This document shows, piece by piece, positions 10,157 to 39,481 of a stretch of DNA of 39,748 bases. The position numbers and the translations under genes are program-made. This DNA is from a virus (Duplodnaviria > Heunggongvirae > Uroviricota > Caudoviricetes), in IMG/VR virus record IMGVR_UViG_2563366998_000008; one strand, 5' to 3'. How positions within the stretch are numbered: the stretch's first letter is position 1; the number at the start of each line of letters is the position of its first letter. The notes beneath the pieces were generated by a model, which did not search any database, was not told the DNA's origin, and saw only the letters and a program-made list of their open reading frames with translations.

Positions 10157-11050
10157 GTGATGAATAAAAAATATGAACTGGTTGTTAAGGGGATAAATAA
10201 TTACGGGGATAAGGTTACTGTTACTGTGAAGTCGGAAGGTGACGGGCAAGCGTCGCTGTTGTTGCCAGATGTGGCGATTAGTCTTGACCGTACTGAAGGT
10301 GCCACGCTGGAGTTTTACGAAGCTGAGGCGAAAAAGCAGGCGAAGCAGTTTTTCATGGATGTTGCTGCCGGGTTATGTGAATGGAACGAACCGTTGCCGG
10401 AAAAGCGCCCCGTAATTTTAGAGGCGCAGGATGTGTTGATAACCTACAAAGGAAAGCTACCGGGAAGAATTACTTGTTCTCTGAAGATGCCGCCGTCAAC
10501 ACTGCGGTCAGAAAAAGATGATGTTGAATCACGTATTGAAAAACTGGAGAGCTACGTCGTTGAGCTGAATAAGAAATGGTCGATATTGGTGCCTTCTGGC
10601 GATGAAAAGCAGTTTGCTGCGTTTGACGATTATTGTCGGAAAGTGATGAGCAGAAATCTCGCAGAGTGTTTCAGTATTCATAATGATAATTTCAGTGACC
10701 CGGAATGGGAGTGTAACCGGCCATCCTTTGTTGTATCCGGTGATGCTGGGAAAATAACCATCTCAGAAAATGGGAAAGTAACACCTCCATCGCACCAGCA
10801 CAGTGAGGAGCTCATTGAATTTGCCATTGATTACCTGAAGAACAATAAAAAGCAGGGGCTGATGAAGCGCGTTGGCCGTTGCATGGGATATCTTCAGGTA
10901 GCCGCTGAGATTGAAGCGCTGGCCAGTGGTGCTGATAAGGATGCAATTGTGCGGGAGGCTCTTCTTCGTGATTTTAATACTCCACCCTTTAAAAAAGGGC
11001 CGGCTTACTGGCTTCATCCGGGGCTGACTTATCTTAAAGTGCGTATTTAG
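10157..11050 (+). CDS. hypothetical 297-aa protein inserted between holin and endolysin
   Basis: GTG 10157 / ATG 10160 directly after the holin stop; long clean ORF; no domain recognised; visibly more AT-rich than the structural genes. Confidence 0.6.
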   Translation: MMNKKYELVVKGINNYGDKVTVTVKSEGDGQASLLLPDVAISLDRTEGATLEFYEAEAKKQAKQFFMDVAAGLCEWNEPLPEKRPVILEAQDVLITYKGKLPGRITCSLKMPPSTLRSEKDDVESRIEKLESYVVELNKKWSILVPSGDEKQFAAFDDYCRKVMSRNLAECFSIHNDNFSDPEWECNRPSFVVSGDAGKITISENGKVTPPSHQHSEELIEFAIDYLKNNKKQGLMKRVGRCMGYLQVAAEIEALASGADKDAIVREALLRDFNTPPFKKGPAYWLHPGLTYLKVRI

Positions 11051-11086: not shown

Positions 11087-11620
11087 ATGAACACCAAAAT
11101 CAAATACGGCCTGTCGGCTGCCGTTCTGGCGCTGATTGCCGCTGGTGCGCCTGCGCCTGACATTCTCGACCAGTTTCTGGATGAAAAGGAAGGCAACCAC
11201 ACCACGGCATACCGTGATGGTGCAGGTATCTGGACCATCTGCCGTGGTGCCATCATGGTGGATGGCAAACCTGTCGTTCCGGGCATGAAGTTGTCGAAGG
11301 AAAAATGCGACCAGGTTAACGCCATTGAGCGTGATAAAGCGCTGGCGTGGGTGGAGAAAAACATCAGAGTGCCGCTGACCGAACCCCAGAAAGCGGGGAT
11401 CGCGTCATTCTGTCCGTACAACATTGGTCCCGGTAAGTGTTTCCCGTCGACGTTTTACAGACGAATTAATGCTGGTGATCGAAAAGGTGCCTGCGAAGCG
11501 ATTCGCTGGTGGATTAAGGACGGTGGCAGAGACTGCCGTATTCGTTCAAACAACTGTTACGGTCAGGTATCCCGTCGTGACCAGGAGAGCGCGCTGGCGT
11601 GCTGGGGTATCGACAGATAA
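11087..11620 (+). CDS. R: SAR endolysin (phage-21 R-type lysozyme)
   Basis: N-terminal Gly/Ala-rich signal-anchor-release segment (LSAAVLALIAAGA) plus lysozyme core resembling R21. Confidence 0.85.
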   Translation: MNTKIKYGLSAAVLALIAAGAPAPDILDQFLDEKEGNHTTAYRDGAGIWTICRGAIMVDGKPVVPGMKLSKEKCDQVNAIERDKALAWVEKNIRVPLTEPQKAGIASFCPYNIGPGKCFPSTFYRRINAGDRKGACEAIRWWIKDGGRDCRIRSNNCYGQVSRRDQESALACWGIDR

Positions 11621-11776
11621 GCAGAATATTTTGCTGAAAAATGAGGAATGGCCACGCGGGCGGATAACACGAAATCCTGCGAACTGGCGAAACGTAAGTG
11701 AATAAAAGTAAAAACCCCGTTTGTTGGCACCAAGCGAGGTTTTGTGTTTCTGACCTTGAGTAAGGCAAGGGAGAAC

Positions 11777-11959
11777 ATGGCGAAGTGTAAACGAATTCTG
11801 TTGAGGTTGACTATGAAAAATGGCCTTGAACTGAAAGCGCCTGTAACTGATGACATCAGCAGAGCACTGGCTTTTGCCATTAAGTGGGTGGCGGTCGGTG
11901 TTGCTGTGTCCCCGATGCTGTATGGGCTGGCAAAACTGGTCATTGCGTTGAAATCGTGA
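11777..11959 (+). CDS. small hypothetical protein with C-terminal hydrophobic segment
   Basis: ATG 11777 after GGGAGA; 60 aa. Confidence 0.3.
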
Positions 11960-11973
11960 AGGGAGGATTAAGC

Positions 11974-12105
11974 ATGTCAGACAAACTCATAACGCTGGCG
12001 AAGATCCTCTGTGTAATTGTCGGCATTTCATTTTCACTAATGCTGGTTGCTCTTTTTCTTTCCATGGCCTGGATGATGTTGTCTTCGTCGGGGTTGCTGG
12101 GGTGA
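11974..12105 (+). CDS. small hydrophobic membrane protein (43 aa)
   Basis: ATG 11974 after GGGAGGA; single predicted transmembrane helix; stop overlaps the Rz start. Confidence 0.35.
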
Positions 12106-12575
12106 ACATAAACCGAATGCTTTCCGCGTTTATCGTTATTCTGCTGGTGGCCTGTGGTGCGCTGTGGATGGCAACAGACCATTACCGTGATAACGCGATT
12201 ACCTACAAAGCGCAGCGCGATAACAAAGCCAGTGAACTGAAGCTGGCGAACGCAACCATTACTGATATGCAGGTGCGCCAGCGCGATGTTGCTGCGCTCG
12301 ATGCAAAATACTCGAGGGAATTAGCCGATGCGAGAGCTGAAAATGAAACTCTTCGCGCTGACGTTGCCGCTGGTCGTAAGCGCCTGCGGATCAACGCCAC
12401 CTGTCCAGGCTCCGTGCGTGAAGCCCCCACCACCTCCGGCGTGGATAATGCAACCGGCCCCCAACTGGCAGACACCGTTACACGGGATTATTTCACCCTC
12501 AGAGAGCGGCTGATGACGATGCACAAGCAACTGGAAGGGGCACAGGACTATATCCGCACTCAGTGCCTGAAATAA
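12102..12575 (+). CDS. Rz: Rz i-spanin
   Basis: N-terminal TM then ...[14 protein letters not shown]...VAAGRKRL...[10 protein letters not shown]..., matching lambda Rz; start GTG 12102 or ATG 12117. Confidence 0.85.
12328..12513 (+). CDS. Rz1: Rz1 o-spanin lipoprotein, embedded in Rz in the +1 frame
   Basis: Signal peptide with lipobox ending in Cys, then proline-rich [14 protein letters not shown]..., matching lambda Rz1. Confidence 0.8.
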
Positions 12576-12885
12576 GTTTTGTTGATGCGCCGTATCGTCG
12601 CTATATTCCCTCATTAACAGAGACCGCAGCCCGACAGGGAGACTCCTCTGCGCGAGTGTGCGGGGATAATTAAAAACGATGCACACCGGGTTTTTACCGC
12701 GTTAATGATTCGCGGGTTTATCCCGGTGCGATGGTGGAAGAAACAGGAAGCTGTATTACAGAAAGTGCTACTACTGTATCCCGATGCGATGTATGTAATG
12801 TGAGTCAGATAATGGCACAGGATGTGGTGATGTGGCAGTCTGGAACACAGGATATATTGTCAGAATAAGACCCGTAGGAATAAAA

Positions 12886-13212
12886 ATGAAAAGACGCCTT
12901 TTACTACTTTTTCTGTTATCTGTCCTGGCAGTGGGATGCTCGCAGCAAAAAGCTGATGAGCCCCGGCAATTAGTGACGGTGTATCCACGATATCCGGAAT
13001 ATGCTGCAGCAAATTATATCAAGGGGCTGGTTGAGGTTAAGTTCGATATTGGTGCTGATGGGACTGTGACACGGATCGTTTTTCTCCGCTCAGAGCCTCA
13101 TAATTTGTTTCGTGATGAAGTGGTGAAGGCCATGGCGAAATGGCGATTTGAAAAGAATCGCCCCTGTCAGGGAGTGAAGAGACAATTTATCTTTACGCCG
13201 TCACGTCCTTGA
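12886..13212 (+). CDS. lipoprotein with TonB C-terminal-like domain
   Basis: Signal peptide MKRRLLLLFLLSVLAVGC (lipobox LAVGC); mature region YPRYPEYAAANYIKGLVEVKFDIGADGTVTRIVFLRSEPHNLFRDEVVKAMAKWRFE aligns by eye to the E. coli TonB C-terminal domain. Confidence 0.7.
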   Translation: MKRRLLLLFLLSVLAVGCSQQKADEPRQLVTVYPRYPEYAAANYIKGLVEVKFDIGADGTVTRIVFLRSEPHNLFRDEVVKAMAKWRFEKNRPCQGVKRQFIFTPSRP

Positions 13213-13304
13213 TGCTTCCAGGTAGAGAGGGGCTGGACGCAGGAGAAAAATGAAAGAGCCAGCGGTTATATTTTTGTCATGGCTGACGAGGAATGATGGA
13301 AGAA

Positions 13305-13327
13305 GGCGTTGTATGCCACACAACGCC
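13305..13327. terminator. hairpin between convergent genes
   Basis: GGCGTTGT / ACAACGCC stem, T-rich downstream on the + strand. Confidence 0.35.
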
Positions 13328-13575
13328 TCACTGTTCATTTCTTCTTTTTCTCTGGTGGAACCCGATGAATAAGAGTTGCACTGGTTTCCGATGAGATGGC
13401 GATATACTCGGGCAAAGTATGCTGGCAGTTTTCCAACTGGTCAAAAATACCTGCTCTCGTCTGTTGCAATGCCTGCAGCATGCGGCGGCAATGCGCCTTG
13501 CTTTTACTAACCATCTTTCCTTCCTCTATCAGTCGCTGCGTGAACTCATCATGTAATACCAGGTAAATGCGGATG

Positions 13576-13827
13576 TTATCGGTTTTGGCTACGCAGCATA
13601 GTACAAAACGGACAGGTGCATCCCGGGACGGGGGAGGCGTCACATGTCCCTGTGATGGTTGTTCCGGGTAATGCACTGTGTGGGGCATAAAAATGTCCGA
13701 TAATTTTACTTTCTACCGCAGTTAGTTGATTCGTTGGTCCTGGTAGCACATTGGGCGAGGATTTAAATGCCAGGCAACTGAAGGATGATGTTGCAAGGGA
13801 GATAGCGAGAATATTTCTGATTTTCAT
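13576..13827 (-). CDS. possible small secreted cysteine-rich protein
   Basis: Minus-strand ATG (13825-13827) with GAGG ~9 nt upstream; N-terminal signal-peptide-like MKIRNILAISLATSSFSCLA; four Cys near the C-terminus; overlaps another minus-strand ORF (13335..13688). Confidence 0.3.
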   Translation of the reverse strand: MKIRNILAISLATSSFSCLAFKSSPNVLPGPTNQLTAVESKIIGHFYAPHSALPGTTITGTCDASPVPGCTCPFCTMLRSQNR

Positions 13828-13975
13828 TTGATGATGCCTCTGTGTGAAATGACGGTAAACGACGCACTTGTGCCGGCACATAATAGCAAGCACCATAATA
13901 GATCAGATTCGATTCTTGCTGTAAGTGATAATTATTCTCGTTTTCGGGTCCTTTCCGTCGATCCAACAGGTTACG

Positions 13976-13987
13976 GGGCGGCGACCT
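13976..13987 (+). other. cosN cohesive-end site (GGGCGGCGACCT)
   Basis: ...CGATCCAACAGGTTACG | GGGCGGCGACCTCGCGGGTTTTCGCTATTTATGAAAATTTTCCGG matches the lambda cos junction as recalled. Confidence 0.85.
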
Positions 13988-14130
13988 CGCGGGTTTTCGC
14001 TATTTATGAAAATTTTCCGGGAACCATGTCCGGTTTCTCTTCAAGTTAACTATATGAAAAATAAAAAAAGAGGTCTTCTGTGAACCGGACATGCACAAAA
14101 AATAGACATGTAAGCCGGACATGACCGGTT
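13988..14130 (+). promoter_or_regulatory. cosB region with three copies of a CCGGACATG motif
   Basis: Motif at 14023-14034 (inverted), 14083-14093 and 14114-14124, between cosN and the small terminase gene. Confidence 0.5.
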
Positions 14131-14170: not shown

Positions 14171-14680
14171 GTGGCTACGCAGACTGAAGTTGCCAGGCAT
14201 TTAAGTCTGACCGATCGCCAGCTTCGCAGATTGCAGAAATTGCCGGGTGCCCCGATATCGAATAAGCGAGGGCAACTGGATCTGGATGCCTGGCGCGATT
14301 TTTACATATCGTATCTGAGAAGAAGTAAAAACGATGTGCCTGATGGCGATAGCGAAGACGACTATGAGGAGAAATTGCTTATTGCCAGATGGGAACTGAC
14401 AGCAGAACAGGCTGTTACACAGCAGTTAAAAAATGAGGTGTCAAAAGGAAAACTTATTGATACCGGGTTCTGTATTTTTGCCCTCAGCAAGCTGGCAATG
14501 GCGTTATCCAGTACGCTTGATTCCATCCCTTTATCCATGCAGCGACAGTTTCCTGATTTAACACCGCGCCATCTTGACCATCTGAAAACCCTTATTGCGA
14601 AGGGGGCAAATCAGTGTGCGCGGGCGGGGGATAAATTACCGGATTTACTCGATGAATATATCAGAGCAACAACTGAATAA
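14171..14680 (+). CDS. nu1: terminase small subunit (Nu1-like)
   Basis: GTG 14171 after GAGGTGAGGA; C-terminal ...FCIFALSKLA...LDSIPLSMQRQFPDL..RHLDHLK...LLDEYI resembles lambda Nu1. Confidence 0.85.
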   Translation: MATQTEVARHLSLTDRQLRRLQKLPGAPISNKRGQLDLDAWRDFYISYLRRSKNDVPDGDSEDDYEEKLLIARWELTAEQAVTQQLKNEVSKGKLIDTGFCIFALSKLAMALSSTLDSIPLSMQRQFPDLTPRHLDHLKTLIAKGANQCARAGDKLPDLLDEYIRATTE

Positions 14681-34340: not shown

Positions 34341-34940
34341 ATGCGTAAAGTTTGTGCAGCCATTTTGTCCGCAGCCATCTGTCTGTCCGTATCCGGTGCG
34401 CCTGCATGGGCGTCTGAACATCAGCCCACACTGAGCGCGGGGTATCTTCATGCCCGTACGAACGCTCCCGGCAGCGATAATCTGAACGGGATTAACGTGA
34501 AATACCGTTATGAGTTTACGGACGCGCTGGGGCTGATTACGTCCTTCAGTTATGCCAATGCTGAGGATGAGCAAAAAACGCACTACAGCGATACCCGCTG
34601 GCATGAAGATTCCGTGCGTAACCGCTGGTTCAGCGTGATGGCGGGGCCGTCTGTACGCGTGAATGAATGGTTCAGCGCGTATGCGATGGTGGGTGTGGCT
34701 TACAGCCGTGTGTCGACTTTCTCCGGGGATTATCTCCGCGTAACTGACAACAAGGGGAAAACGCACGATGTGCTGACCGGAAGTGATGACGGTCGCCACA
34801 GCAACACGTCTCTGGCGTGGGGGGCTGGCGTGCAGTTTAACCCGACCGAATCCGTAACCATTGACCTTGCTTATGAAGGTTCCGGTAGTGGCGACTGGCG
34901 AACGGATGCATTTATTGTTGGTATCGGATACCGTTTCTGA
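34341..34940 (+). CDS. lom: Lom-like outer membrane beta-barrel protein (Ail/Lom/OmpX family)
   Basis: Signal peptide, INVKYRYE, SVMAGP, AYAMVGVA and C-terminal DLAYEGSGSGDWRTDAFIVGIGYRF matching lambda Lom. Confidence 0.85.
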   Translation: MRKVCAAILSAAICLSVSGAPAWASEHQPTLSAGYLHARTNAPGSDNLNGINVKYRYEFTDALGLITSFSYANAEDEQKTHYSDTRWHEDSVRNRWFSVMAGPSVRVNEWFSAYAMVGVAYSRVSTFSGDYLRVTDNKGKTHDVLTGSDDGRHSNTSLAWGAGVQFNPTESVTIDLAYEGSGSGDWRTDAFIVGIGYRF

Positions 34941-38756: not shown

Positions 38757-39413
38757 CTATTTTTTCCCTGAAGCGGAAAACATTACTACAGTACCTTGAA
38801 CCTTGGTTTTAACATTCTCGAAATGCTCTGAGAGTATATGTGTTAAGCCTTCTTCGGAATCTTTTGTGTTTGAAAAGATGCCTTTCTGATTGTAAATGCG
38901 CATCAGTTTTTGACCGAAGCTATTGTGCACAACTCCATCGCCAAGAATTGTGGCTCCGTATAGAGTTCCATCGTCAGTTAAGGCCTGCGCCGCATTGCGT
39001 ATTACACAGCTTTTTGTAGATATATTTCCAGGCAGGCAGTGAAGAAGGTAAAACATGGAAATGGAATCAAATTGACCATGTAACGCCGCGGGATAAGGTT
39101 CAAAAACATCATGGCTAATTTTATGTTTAATTTTTGATTCCCCAGCCCTTGTAGATGCCGCGTTCAGGCTAGCTTCGTTCAAATCCATTAAAGATATCAG
39201 ACTACTCTCAGGTACGTGAGTAAGGTAAAACCCAGTTCCAACACCAATATCCAGATGGTTGTTACCTACATGTTCCAGAAAGTGTGGAAGAAGGTGTTCC
39301 TTTGTAGGACATCCCCATGCAAGCCGATTTGATACTCCCAAAACCCACCAGTCATAAAGCTTTAGGGTAAGTGGTGTGTAAATTTTAGCCCCATCATCTG
39401 TGTTTTTTTTCAT
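38757..39413 (-). CDS. class I SAM-dependent methyltransferase
   Basis: Minus-strand ORF; HLDIGVGTGFY glycine-rich SAM-binding motif and downstream acidic motif LMDLNE; AT-rich relative to neighbours; likely start at the second ATG (39411-39413) with GGTGA upstream. Confidence 0.7.
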   Translation of the reverse strand: MKKNTDDGAKIYTPLTLKLYDWWVLGVSNRLAWGCPTKEHLLPHFLEHVGNNHLDIGVGTGFYLTHVPESSLISLMDLNEASLNAASTRAGESKIKHKISHDVFEPYPAALHGQFDSISMFYLLHCLPGNISTKSCVIRNAAQALTDDGTLYGATILGDGVVHNSFGQKLMRIYNQKGIFSNTKDSEEGLTHILSEHFENVKTKVQGTVVMFSASGKK

Positions 39414-39481
39414 TGATTTCACCATGTTATAGTTTTATTTGTGAATTAAATCAATTATGGCGATGAATTACAAGGGGTTAA

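What the first reader, a model, noticed from the sequence alone, without database searches (positions are those of the whole stretch)
12886..13212. Prophage lipoprotein carrying a TonB C-terminal domain in the Rz-to-cos accessory slot
Seen in sequence: a 108-aa ORF with a lipoprotein signal peptide (MKRRLLLLFLLSVLAVGC, Ser at +2 so predicted outer-membrane sorting) whose mature part aligns by eye to the E. coli TonB C-terminal domain (YP.YP..A......G.V.VKFD...DG.V......L.S.P...F..EV..AM..WRFE). It sits where lambda carries bor. Inference: a membrane-tethered TonB C-terminal domain could bind TonB boxes of TonB-dependent receptors and act as a decoy, which would give exclusion of TonB-dependent phages (T1, phi80) or colicins. 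I do not know this as a described mechanism.
Basis: partly seen in the sequence, partly recalled or inferred. Interest (0 to 1): 0.7.

Follow-up and report, generated by a model that had tools for sequence, protein, structure and literature searches.

The report
Prophage lipoprotein made of TonB's tip
A small gene carried by the classic phage 21 and by prophages in roughly a quarter of complete E. coli genomes encodes a predicted outer-membrane-tethered copy of the receptor-binding tip of the iron-uptake protein TonB; it most likely jams TonB-dependent uptake, but nobody appears to have tested this.

Summary
Window 12886-13212 (+) encodes a 108-aa protein with a canonical lipoprotein signal (LAVGC, Ser at +2). 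Its mature part is a complete TonB C-terminal domain: Pfam TonB_C E=7e-13, and 41% identical without gaps to E. coli TonB 150-230. The AlphaFold model superposes on TonB from the BtuB complex at 1.1 A.

The protein is 100% identical to gene CPT_21_73 of phage 21. The gene occurs in 1225 of 5426 complete E. coli genomes, and a 70%-identical allele occurs in 415 more. It is routinely annotated "TonB family protein" or "partial TonB". It is not a remnant: dN/dS between the alleles is about 0.12 and the lipobox is conserved. A 41% homologue sits in the same lysis-to-terminase slot of a Klebsiella phage. Its nearest relatives may be short chromosomal TonB_C lipoproteins of Klebsiella, Raoultella, Serratia and Erwinia (weak tree support).

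The decoy idea is plausible and has an artificial precedent: periplasmic TonB fragments inhibit FhuA and FecA transport. It is untested here. Expression timing is unknown, TonB Q160 and R166 are not conserved, and the gene is common in siderophore-dependent ExPEC. No paper describing its function was found. This is a well-defined, testable lead of moderate interest.

The parts
12886..13212 (+). Gene for the 108-aa TonB_C lipoprotein (stop codon included). The protein is 100% identical to phage 21 CPT_21_73.
12876..12879 (+). Shine-Dalgarno-like AGGA, 6 nt before the ATG
   Evidence: Read from the sequence. Conserved as GGAAT in the allele-2 locus.
12886..12939 (+). Lipoprotein signal peptide, codons 1-18, ending in the lipobox L-A-V-G-C. 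Cys18 codon is 12937-12939. The next residue is Ser, so there is no Asp inner-membrane retention signal.
   Evidence: regex for the PROSITE-type lipobox. The lipobox is conserved in all E. coli alleles and in the Klebsiella phage homologue.
12961..13194 (+). TonB C-terminal domain, residues 26-103, equal to E. coli TonB 153-230 (alpha1-beta1-beta2-alpha2-beta3)
13304..13328 (.). 9-bp GC-rich hairpin (GGCGTTGT...ACAACGCC core) between the gene and the convergent downstream gene. Possible bidirectional terminator.
   Evidence: minimum free energy -19.5 kcal/mol for 13290-13350, z = -3.1. The strict terminator scan did not call it.
13335..13511 (-). Convergent 58-aa conserved phage gene of unknown function (phrog_4843). 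It travels in the same cassette.
   Evidence: E=5.5e-46, full length
12586..14020 (.). About 1.44-kb mosaic 'Rz-to-cos' cassette that carries the gene. It is 98-99% identical in most of 80 viral contigs whose lysis and terminase flanks differ.
   Evidence: The phage 21 genome end and cosQ map inside it.
12102..12575 (+). Context: Rz i-spanin, with the embedded Rz1 o-spanin at 12328-12513. This shows that the lysis cassette is complete without the TonB_C gene.
   Evidence: phrog_13 E=1.6e-73; phrog_3198 E=1.3e-29
14171..14680 (+). Context: terminase small subunit, which bounds the accessory slot on the right
   Evidence: phrog_1790, phrog_57

Best explanation
The gene encodes a free-standing TonB C-terminal domain. 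It is exported, lipidated at Cys18 and sorted by Lol to the periplasmic face of the outer membrane. That places it next to the periplasmic openings of TonB-dependent transporters.

The protein has the beta3 edge strand and core of TonB. It has no transmembrane anchor, no proline-rich spacer and no link to ExbB/ExbD. It is therefore predicted to pair with TonB boxes of transporters (FhuA, FepA, CirA, BtuB and others), and perhaps with those of group B colicins, without delivering energy. In doing so it would compete with TonB.

The expected outcome is reduced TonB-dependent uptake. This would give partial protection against agents that need energised TonB: phages T1 and phi80, group B colicins, and catecholate or other TonB-dependent microcins. 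The cost would be some loss of siderophore and B12 import.

Shown: the ORF, the lipobox, the TonB_C homology and fold, purifying selection, and the conserved phage slot.

Inferred: OM localisation and periplasmic orientation, TonB-box binding, the phenotype, and when the gene is expressed.
For: **Domain and fold**
- TonB_C HMM above the curated cut-off.
- 41% identical and ungapped against TonB 150-230.
- The model superposes on receptor-bound TonB over the whole chain: 2gsk_B 81/81 columns, rmsd 1.1 A; 2grx_C rmsd 0.9 A.
- By my mapping of the ungapped alignment onto TonB numbering, the residues matching TonB Y163, P164, F180, G186, F202, W213, Y215 and F230 are Y36, P37, F53, G59, F75, W86, F88 and F103.

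**Membrane targeting**
- The lipobox never has Asp at +2 in any lipidated family member.
- Only about 8 residues separate Cys18 from the fold, so the domain is held at the outer membrane.

**Not a TonB**
- It scores 69 bits against a 315-bit cut-off for the full TonB equivalog. There is no TM helix and no Pro-rich region.

**The gene is functional**
- dN=0.19 and dS=1.54 between the two E. coli alleles.
- 1225 + 415 of 5426 genomes carry one of the alleles.
- A 41% homologue with a lipobox occupies the same holin-lysozyme...terminase slot in Klebsiella phage ST13-OXA48phi12.4.

**Precedent and context**
- Periplasmic TonB domain overexpression inhibits TonB-dependent import. A TonB-box peptide reduces phi80 infection and colicin killing (PMC9841981).
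- Phage OM lipoproteins acting on the periplasmic face of a TonB-dependent transporter are known: Llp and Cor.
- Phage 21 itself uses LamB. A block of TonB-dependent routes would therefore not hinder its own spread.
Against: - There is no direct evidence of binding or of any phenotype.
- TonB Q160 and R166, which are implicated in TonB-box and FhuA contacts, are Tyr33 and Tyr39 here. The beta3 outer residues are basic (K98, R99) instead of Val-Val. The partner could therefore differ from a canonical TonB box.
- No sigma-70 promoter or Fur box above background lies upstream. The gene has the late-operon orientation. It may be made only during lytic growth, when exclusion gives little benefit.
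- It is very common in ExPEC and AIEC strains that depend on siderophores, so a strong general TonB block in lysogens seems costly.
- Chromosomal homologues sit in unrelated, non-iron contexts, which gives no hint of function.
- The PADLOC defence library has no match.
Confidence: 0.45

Rival explanations
1. The protein poisons TonB rather than the receptors. The lipoprotein heterodimerises with the C-terminal domain of the host TonB, which itself forms dimers in crystals and in vivo. This traps TonB at the outer membrane. The net phenotype is similar to the decoy model but the target differs.
For: - The residues matching the aromatic positions of TonB's domain core are all present, by my mapping of the alignment.
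- The best structural match is the dimeric crystal form 1u07.
- In vivo TonB dimerisation is documented (Sauter, Howard & Braun 2003, listed in PMC9249621).
Against: - The protein ends right after beta3 (residue 108 = TonB 235). It therefore lacks the extreme C-terminus, which as I recall takes part in some of the crystallographic dimers.
Confidence: 0.12
2. A late-expressed envelope accessory protein with a different partner. The TonB_C fold is used as a beta-strand-capturing or peptidoglycan/periplasm-binding module during lytic growth. It might, for example, modulate the envelope around lysis, or bind another periplasmic protein. It would not be an exclusion factor.
For: - It has the same orientation as the late operon and no recognisable promoter of its own.
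- It lies directly after the lysis cassette in three different phage backgrounds.
- TonB_C domains can bind other ligands: the FusB C-terminal domain binds ferredoxin (9hi3).
- The contact residues Q160 and R166 are not conserved.
Against: - The Rz-to-cos slot is a general moron hot-spot; bor lies there too. Position is therefore weak evidence.
- The lysis cassette is complete without it.
- Chromosomal homologues exist without any phage genes nearby.
Confidence: 0.18
3. A lysogenic-conversion or virulence lipoprotein analogous to Bor/Iss or Lom. It would be exposed at, or act on, the cell surface (serum resistance, adhesion, host iron-protein interaction) and would not act on TonB-dependent transport.
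For: - It neighbours bor in phage 21 and shares the prophage with lom (34341-34940) in the window.
- It is enriched in human and animal pathogenic lineages among the listed hits.
Against: - The domain is a periplasmic one in every characterised case.
- There is no similarity to Bor/Iss.
- There is nothing to suggest surface exposure.
Confidence: 0.1
4. A non-functional fragment of a captured tonB gene, as the annotations 'partial tonB-like' and 'TonB fragment' imply, or a spanin, as PHROG 1267 is labelled.
For: - Database labels only.
Against: - dN/dS is about 0.12 between alleles, and a purpose-built lipoprotein signal replaces the TonB N-terminus.
- The gene is intact in over 1200 genomes at 99% identity or more.
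- The closest relatives in the tree are full-length 108-130-aa lipoproteins, not TonB (modest support).
- Against the spanin reading: there is no C-terminal TM segment and no embedding in an i-spanin gene. Separate Rz and Rz1 genes are present.
Confidence: 0.03

Closest known systems
E. coli TonB C-terminal domain (Pfam PF03544; PDB 1u07, 1xx3, 2gsk_B, 2grx_C)
   Same: Same fold: alpha-beta-beta-alpha-beta. It is 41% identical without gaps over TonB 150-230. The YP motif is retained, and by my mapping so are the core Gly and aromatic residues. The whole receptor-bound TonB chain (2gsk_B) is matched.
   Different: - No N-terminal TM helix, no proline-rich spacer and no ExbB/ExbD coupling.
- Anchored by lipid to the outer membrane instead of by a helix to the inner membrane.
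- Ends at the equivalent of TonB 235.
- Q160 and R166 are replaced by Tyr.
- Fails the full-length TonB equivalog models.
Engineered periplasmic TonB fragments (Howard, Herrmann, Stratilo & Braun 2001) and TonB-box peptides (Tuckman & Osburne 1992)
   Same: A TonB C-terminal domain, or its ligand, released from the energy-transducing context acts as a competitive inhibitor of TonB-dependent transport, phi80 infection and colicin killing (as summarised in PMC9841981). This is the activity predicted here.
   Different: Those are laboratory constructs, soluble and overexpressed. This is a natural, phage-borne, lipid-anchored version under purifying selection. Its activity has not been measured.
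Phage T5 Llp and phi80/N15 Cor (superinfection-exclusion lipoproteins acting on FhuA)
   Same: Small phage-encoded outer-membrane lipoproteins that act on a TonB-dependent transporter. Llp acts from the periplasmic side.
   Different: - Unrelated sequence and fold. The PDB fold search lists only TonB and TolA-type domains as meaningful matches, and BFVD has no match at E<=0.001.
- Llp and Cor are specific to FhuA, and Llp acts allosterically. A TonB-domain decoy would target the element shared by all TonB-dependent transporters.
- Llp and Cor protect against phages that use the carrier phage's own receptor, whereas phage 21 uses LamB.
Short chromosomal TonB_C lipoproteins and periplasmic proteins of Klebsiella, Raoultella, Serratia, Erwinia and Rahnella (annotated 'TonB family protein')
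   Same: - Same size (107-133 aa) and same architecture: signal or lipobox, short linker, TonB_C.
- 35-49% identical over the domain.
- They cluster with the phage alleles in a neighbour-joining tree, 59% bootstrap for the nearest group.
   Different: - Located in unrelated, non-prophage chromosomal sites.
- Some have a plain Sec signal instead of a lipobox.
- They are also uncharacterised.
Lambda Bor (outer-membrane lipoprotein moron between Rz and cos)
   Same: A small lipoprotein gene in the same accessory region of lambdoid phages.
   Different: Unrelated sequence and opposite strand. It coexists with the TonB_C gene in phage 21. Its function is annotated as serum or complement resistance.

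Membership tests
TonB_C domain (Pfam PF03544 / TIGR01352) | Profile HMM score above the curated cut-off | tested here: met
   PF03544 49.2 bits against 24.6. TIGR01352 47.4 bits against 27.1.
TonB_C domain (Pfam PF03544 / TIGR01352) | Alpha-beta-beta-alpha-beta fold that superposes on solved TonB C-terminal domains | tested here: met
   The model has pLDDT above 95 over the domain. Foldseek: 2gsk_B TM 0.93, rmsd 1.1 A; 1u07_A TM 0.91; 2grx_C rmsd 0.9 A.
TonB_C domain (Pfam PF03544 / TIGR01352) | Conserved YP motif and aromatic/Gly core (TonB Y163, P164, F180, G186, F202, W213, Y215, F230) | tested here: met
   The ungapped alignment gives Y36, P37, F53, G59, F75, W86, F88 and F103. TonB numbering and the choice of residues come from my own knowledge of TonB.
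TonB energy transducer (full-length TonB, NCBIfam NF008081-NF008084) | N-terminal inner-membrane anchor, proline-rich spacer and C-terminal domain, with a whole-protein score above the equivalog cut-off | tested here: not met
   Best score is 69.2 bits against a 315-bit cut-off. Only profile positions 156-240 are matched. The N-terminus is a cleavable lipoprotein signal.
TonB function: binding of TonB boxes | Beta-strand pairing of a transporter's TonB box with beta3, and contacts around Q160 and R166 | not testable with these tools
   The beta3 strand is present in the model (E94-103). Q160 and R166 are Tyr. No complex prediction or binding assay was available.
Bacterial lipoprotein (signal peptidase II substrate) | Basic N-terminus, hydrophobic core, and a lipobox [LVI..][ASTVI..][GAS]C within the first 15-35 residues | tested here: met
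   MKRR, then a hydrophobic run, then LAVGC with Cys18. Conserved in all alleles. Lipidation itself was not tested.
Outer-membrane sorting (Lol, '+2 rule') | No Asp at position +2 after the lipidated Cys | tested here: met
   +2 is Ser here, and Ser, Thr or Ala in every lipidated family member examined. Localisation itself was not tested.
Spanin (the label of PHROG 1267) | o-spanin: a small lipoprotein gene embedded in or adjacent to an i-spanin gene. u-spanin: a lipobox plus a C-terminal TM helix. | tested here: not met
   There is no C-terminal hydrophobic segment (sequence). The gene is separated from Rz by 310 bp. Separate Rz (phrog_13) and Rz1 (phrog_3198) genes are present.
Moron (autonomous promoter-gene-terminator unit) | Own promoter upstream and terminator downstream, with expression from the repressed prophage | tested here: inconclusive
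   No sigma-70 match better than 8/12 on the + strand upstream, and none conserved between alleles. A stable hairpin lies downstream. The gene does move as a discrete 1.44-kb cassette. Expression could not be tested.
Cor / Llp superinfection-exclusion lipoproteins | Sequence or fold similarity to Cor or Llp | tested here: not met
   Pfam and PHROG give only TonB_C and PHROG 1267/34172. PDB fold matches are TonB and TolA domains only. BFVD has no match at E<=0.001.
Known anti-phage defence systems (PADLOC) | Match to any PADLOC-DB model | tested here: not met
   0 families at E<=1.

The most novel reading that the evidence does not exclude
Temperate phages of E. coli and Klebsiella carry a natural dominant-negative TonB. 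This would be an outer-membrane-tethered TonB C-terminal domain that caps the TonB boxes of all TonB-dependent transporters. In one step it would shield the lysogen, or the infected cell, from TonB-dependent phages, group B colicins and siderophore-microcins.

The related chromosomal lipoproteins and periplasmic proteins of Klebsiella, Serratia and Erwinia would then be endogenous brakes on TonB-dependent uptake. That would be a previously unrecognised layer of regulation of the Ton system.
Probability: 0.3. Interest if true: 0.75.

Novelty: new variant of a known kind. Interest (0 to 1): 0.5.

Why it matters
TonB-dependent transporters are the entry route for siderophores, vitamin B12, many colicins and microcins, several phages and 'Trojan-horse' antibiotics such as siderophore-drug conjugates.

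If this gene damps TonB coupling, it would be a widespread source of strain-to-strain variation. It sits in up to about 30% of complete E. coli genomes, including ST131 EC958, LF82, and strains labelled ST1193, APEC and Shiga-toxin-phage carriers. The traits affected would be iron uptake, bacteriocin and phage sensitivity, and possibly susceptibility to siderophore antibiotics.

It would also give the TonB field a natural, evolution-tuned inhibitor of the TonB-to-TonB-box interaction. It sits in phage 21, which is easy to manipulate genetically. Finally, it would correct misleading annotations: 'partial TonB', 'TonB fragment' and 'Rz-like spanin'.

Tried and rejected
- **Truncated or pseudogenised tonB.** Rejected. 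The protein has a dedicated lipoprotein signal, dN/dS is about 0.12, and it is intact in more than 1200 genomes.
- **Spanin (the PHROG 1267 label).** Rejected. Separate Rz and Rz1 genes are present and there is no C-terminal TM segment.
- **Self-exclusion at the phage's own receptor, as for Llp and Cor.** Rejected for phage 21, which uses LamB. The gene also occurs with different J tail-tip types: the best matches to the window's J C-terminus are phages that lack the gene.
- **Iron regulation through a Fur box.** The best match is 11-13 of 19 positions, no better than random 325-nt windows.
- **Own sigma-70 promoter.** None at 9/12 or better on the + strand upstream. The weak 8/12 candidates are not conserved between alleles.
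- **Conserved upstream small ORF (12731-12868) as a coupled gene.** It is truncated to 21 codons in the allele-2 locus and matches no family.
- **Structured leader RNA.** There is no Rfam hit, and the fold z-score is -1.2.
- **Conserved gene neighbours of the chromosomal homologues that might reveal a partner.** None found. The contexts are lacZ/lacI, ycgN-dsbB-nhaB-fadR, an EAL/GNAT region and araA.
- **First AlphaFold run with a 6-sequence alignment.** pLDDT was 61 and the model was discarded.
- **Searching loci with the 16-sequence alignment.** It failed for lack of a conserved stretch.
- **Reading Howard et al. 2001 directly.** The paper is not held, so the precedent is cited second-hand.
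- **Tree to decide the origin: from tonB, or from a chromosomal lipoprotein.** Only weakly resolved, with bootstrap 59% and 23%.
Full report
**1. The observation**

The ORF exists exactly as described. It runs from ATG 12886 to the stop ending at 13212 and encodes 108 aa. AGGA lies 6 nt upstream. RefSeq's pipeline calls the same 327-nt CDS in E. coli genomes.

The N-terminus MKRRLLLLFLLSVLAVGC|S satisfies the PROSITE-type lipobox rule. The lipidated Cys is residue 18 and Ser follows at +2.

The rest of the protein is a TonB C-terminal domain by every measure:
- Pfam TonB_C E=7.3e-13, 49 bits against a 24.6-bit cut-off.
- TIGR01352 E=1.8e-12.
- phmmer against PDB sequences: E=1.4e-14 to E. coli TonB chains 1u07, 1xx3, 2gsk_B and 2grx_C.
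- BLASTP against TonB: 33/81 identities with no gaps, query 23-103 = TonB 150-230.

A first AlphaFold model from six near-identical sequences was poor, with pLDDT 61. A 30-sequence family alignment gave pLDDT 86 overall and above 95 across residues 31-100. Foldseek places that model on TonB from the BtuB complex over all 81 residues of the chain (TM 0.93, rmsd 1.1 A). It also places it on 1u07 (TM 0.91) and on TonB from the FhuA complex (rmsd 0.9 A).

**2. What it is and where it occurs**

The window is a lambdoid prophage. Around the gene lie:
- the endolysin at 11087-11620;
- Rz at 12102-12575, with Rz1 embedded at 12328-12513;
- the terminase subunits from 14171;
- the tail-tip protein J, Lom, and side tail fibre genes further on.

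The protein is 100% identical to CPT_21_73 of the classic phage 21. The curators there named it 'TonB C-terminal domain protein'. The genome announcement does not discuss it. It is also identical in phages ev017, Perceval and three PhiR prophage isolates. Their labels range from 'hypothetical' to 'TonB fragment' and 'partial tonB-like membrane protein encoded within prophage CP-933N'.

Phage 21 has bor and this gene side by side. The gene is therefore a neighbour of the bor slot, not its occupant. The window lacks bor.

Prevalence:
- The gene is present in 1225 of 5426 complete E. coli genomes, at 99% identity or more in 1203 of them. These include ST131 EC958, LF82, and strains labelled ST1193 and APEC.
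- A second allele, 70% identical at the protein level, occurs in 415 genomes. It is carried by Stx1a-converting phages and by phage JLK-2012. There too it lies after Rz/Rz1, but ahead of an HNH/terminase module of a different type.
- A 41%-identical homologue with a lipobox (LLGC|S) sits between the lysis genes and HNH/terminase of Klebsiella phage ST13-OXA48phi12.4.

Across 80 IMG/VR contigs, the segment 12586 to about 14020 behaves as a cassette. It holds this gene, a hairpin, a convergent 58-aa gene (phrog_4843) and cos-proximal DNA. It stays 98-99% identical while the flanking Rz (84%) and terminase (68% or 93-96%) vary.

**3. It is a working gene, not a TonB remnant**

Between the two E. 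coli alleles, dN=0.19 and dS=1.54, a ratio of about 0.12. The lipobox and domain core are intact.

An exhaustive profile search found a family of 107-133-aa proteins with the same plan: signal, short linker, TonB_C. Genome loci show them in the chromosomes of Klebsiella, Raoultella, Serratia and Erwinia. A further family member is labelled Rahnella by its source.

None of this window's ORFs other than the TonB_C gene matches those loci, and the neighbours examined are not iron-related. The contexts are lacZ/lacI, ycgN-dsbB-nhaB-fadR, an EAL/GNAT region and araA.

Most members have a lipobox without Asp at +2. The Erwinia and Serratia subgroups have a plain Sec signal, so they would be soluble periplasmic TonB_C domains.

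A neighbour-joining tree places the phage alleles with the group P0037/P0039/P0040/P0042. This group includes the Klebsiella phage protein and, by similarity, the Klebsiella/Raoultella-type chromosomal lipoproteins. Support is 59% bootstrap. The group lies apart from true TonBs, but the deeper nodes are weak at 23%. The phage gene was thus probably recruited from such a lipoprotein rather than cut from tonB. That conclusion is tentative.

The PHROG containing this family (1267, E=5e-43) is labelled 'Rz-like spanin'. That label does not fit. The window has its own Rz and Rz1, and the protein has no C-terminal membrane segment.

**4. How it most likely works**

The protein keeps the part of TonB that meets receptors and discards the part that delivers energy. 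It matches only the last third of full-length TonB models, scoring 69 bits against a 315-bit cut-off.

It retains beta3, the strand that pairs with the TonB box in the FhuA and BtuB co-crystals (described in PMC9249621). By my mapping it also retains the YP motif and the residues matching the Gly and aromatic core positions of TonB.

Only about eight residues separate the lipid anchor from the fold. [quoted passage not shown]

The simplest reading is a non-productive competitor of TonB. There is an experimental precedent:
- Overexpressed periplasmic TonB domain inhibits TonB-dependent iron import.
- A TonB-box pentapeptide reduces TonB-dependent uptake, colicin killing and phi80 infection (Howard et al. 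2001; Tuckman & Osburne 1992; both as summarised in PMC9841981).

Phage lipoproteins that disable a TonB-dependent transporter, Llp from the periplasmic side, are also known: T5 Llp and phi80/N15 Cor. They are unrelated in fold.

Phage 21 enters through LamB. Blocking TonB-dependent routes would therefore harm competitors and toxins, not its own kin.

Two details come from my memory of the TonB literature and were not testable here:
- The free TonB domain's extreme C-terminus occupies or neighbours the TonB-box site.
- This protein, which ends at the equivalent of TonB 235, would then have a permanently open beta3 edge.

**5. Reasons for caution**

- TonB Q160 and R166, which are implicated in TonB-box and FhuA contacts, are Tyr33 and Tyr39 here. 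Two beta3 positions are basic (K98, R99) rather than Val. The partner could be a subset of receptors or something else. TonB-type domains can bind other ligands, for example FusB with ferredoxin (9hi3).
- No sigma-70 promoter or Fur box above background lies upstream, and none is conserved between alleles. The gene points the same way as the late operon, so it may be made only late in infection.
- A stable hairpin (13304-13328, -19.5 kcal/mol for the folded segment, z=-3.1) separates it from the convergent gene. This is compatible with a moron-like unit but proves nothing.
- The gene's abundance in siderophore-dependent ExPEC lineages argues against a strong general TonB block in lysogens.
- No defence-system model matches.

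I therefore give the decoy model 0.45. The TonB-heterodimer variant gets 0.12. A late envelope role or other partner gets 0.18, a Bor-like conversion role 0.10, and a remnant or spanin 0.03.

**6. Known or new**

The gene and its domain are already visible in public annotation. That part is not new.

Ten full-text searches turned up no functional study of this protein and no natural phage-encoded TonB-domain inhibitor. The searches led to a 2024 review of superinfection exclusion, a 2026 Llp preprint and the phage 21 genome announcement. The BFVD library of viral structure predictions contains no TonB_C-fold match.

The finding is best classed as a new variant of a known kind: phage outer-membrane lipoproteins that target TonB-dependent transport. 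It uses a captured copy of the host machine's own tip. It is a clean hypothesis that could be tested in phage 21 with simple plating, colicin and uptake assays.

Noticed in passing
window 12586-14020: A roughly 1.44-kb 'Rz-to-cos' cassette holds the TonB_C gene, a hairpin, a convergent small gene and cos-proximal DNA. It stays 98-99% identical in most of 80 viral contigs, while the adjacent Rz (84%) and terminase (68% or 93-96%) differ. It is a sharply bounded mosaic module.
   Followed up: partly
window 12586-12800 vs L015 2140-2330: The roughly 215 nt just after the Rz stop is nearly identical between the two allele backgrounds, although the TonB_C genes downstream are only about 71% identical in nucleotides. 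It could be a recombination joint or a regulatory leader. There is no Rfam match and no significant RNA fold.
   Followed up: partly
window 13335-13511 (-): A 58-aa gene convergent with the TonB_C gene matches phrog_4843 over its full length (E=5.5e-46). Its function is unknown. The phage 21 record instead annotates small + strand ORFs in this stretch.
   Followed up: partly
PHROG 1267 (database label): The PHROG family that contains this protein is labelled 'Rz-like spanin'. This looks like an annotation error that spread from gene position.
   Followed up: yes
window 11744-12105: Two overlapping small conserved genes of unknown function (phrog_1115, 71 aa; phrog_4906, 73 aa) lie between the endolysin and Rz. 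A 297-aa DUF1327 protein (10157-11050) precedes the endolysin.
   Followed up: no
P0182, P0153, P0184-P0186 (Erwinia-type); P0100, P0187-P0189 (Serratia-type): These chromosomal relatives carry an ordinary Sec signal (…ASA|Q, …ALA|L) instead of a lipobox. They are predicted natural soluble periplasmic TonB_C domains, the exact analogue of the engineered inhibitory TonB fragments.
   Followed up: partly
L002 (NZ_SJEX01000172.1, 'Modestobacter excelsi', 418-bp contig): A 418-bp contig in an actinobacterial assembly encodes residues 1-67 of this E. coli prophage protein at 100% identity. This is almost certainly contamination of that assembly.
   Followed up: no
window 38757-39425 (-): A 222-aa methyltransferase-domain ORF lies on the minus strand just after the tail fibre assembly gene. 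It is probably another accessory (moron) gene of this prophage.
   Followed up: no
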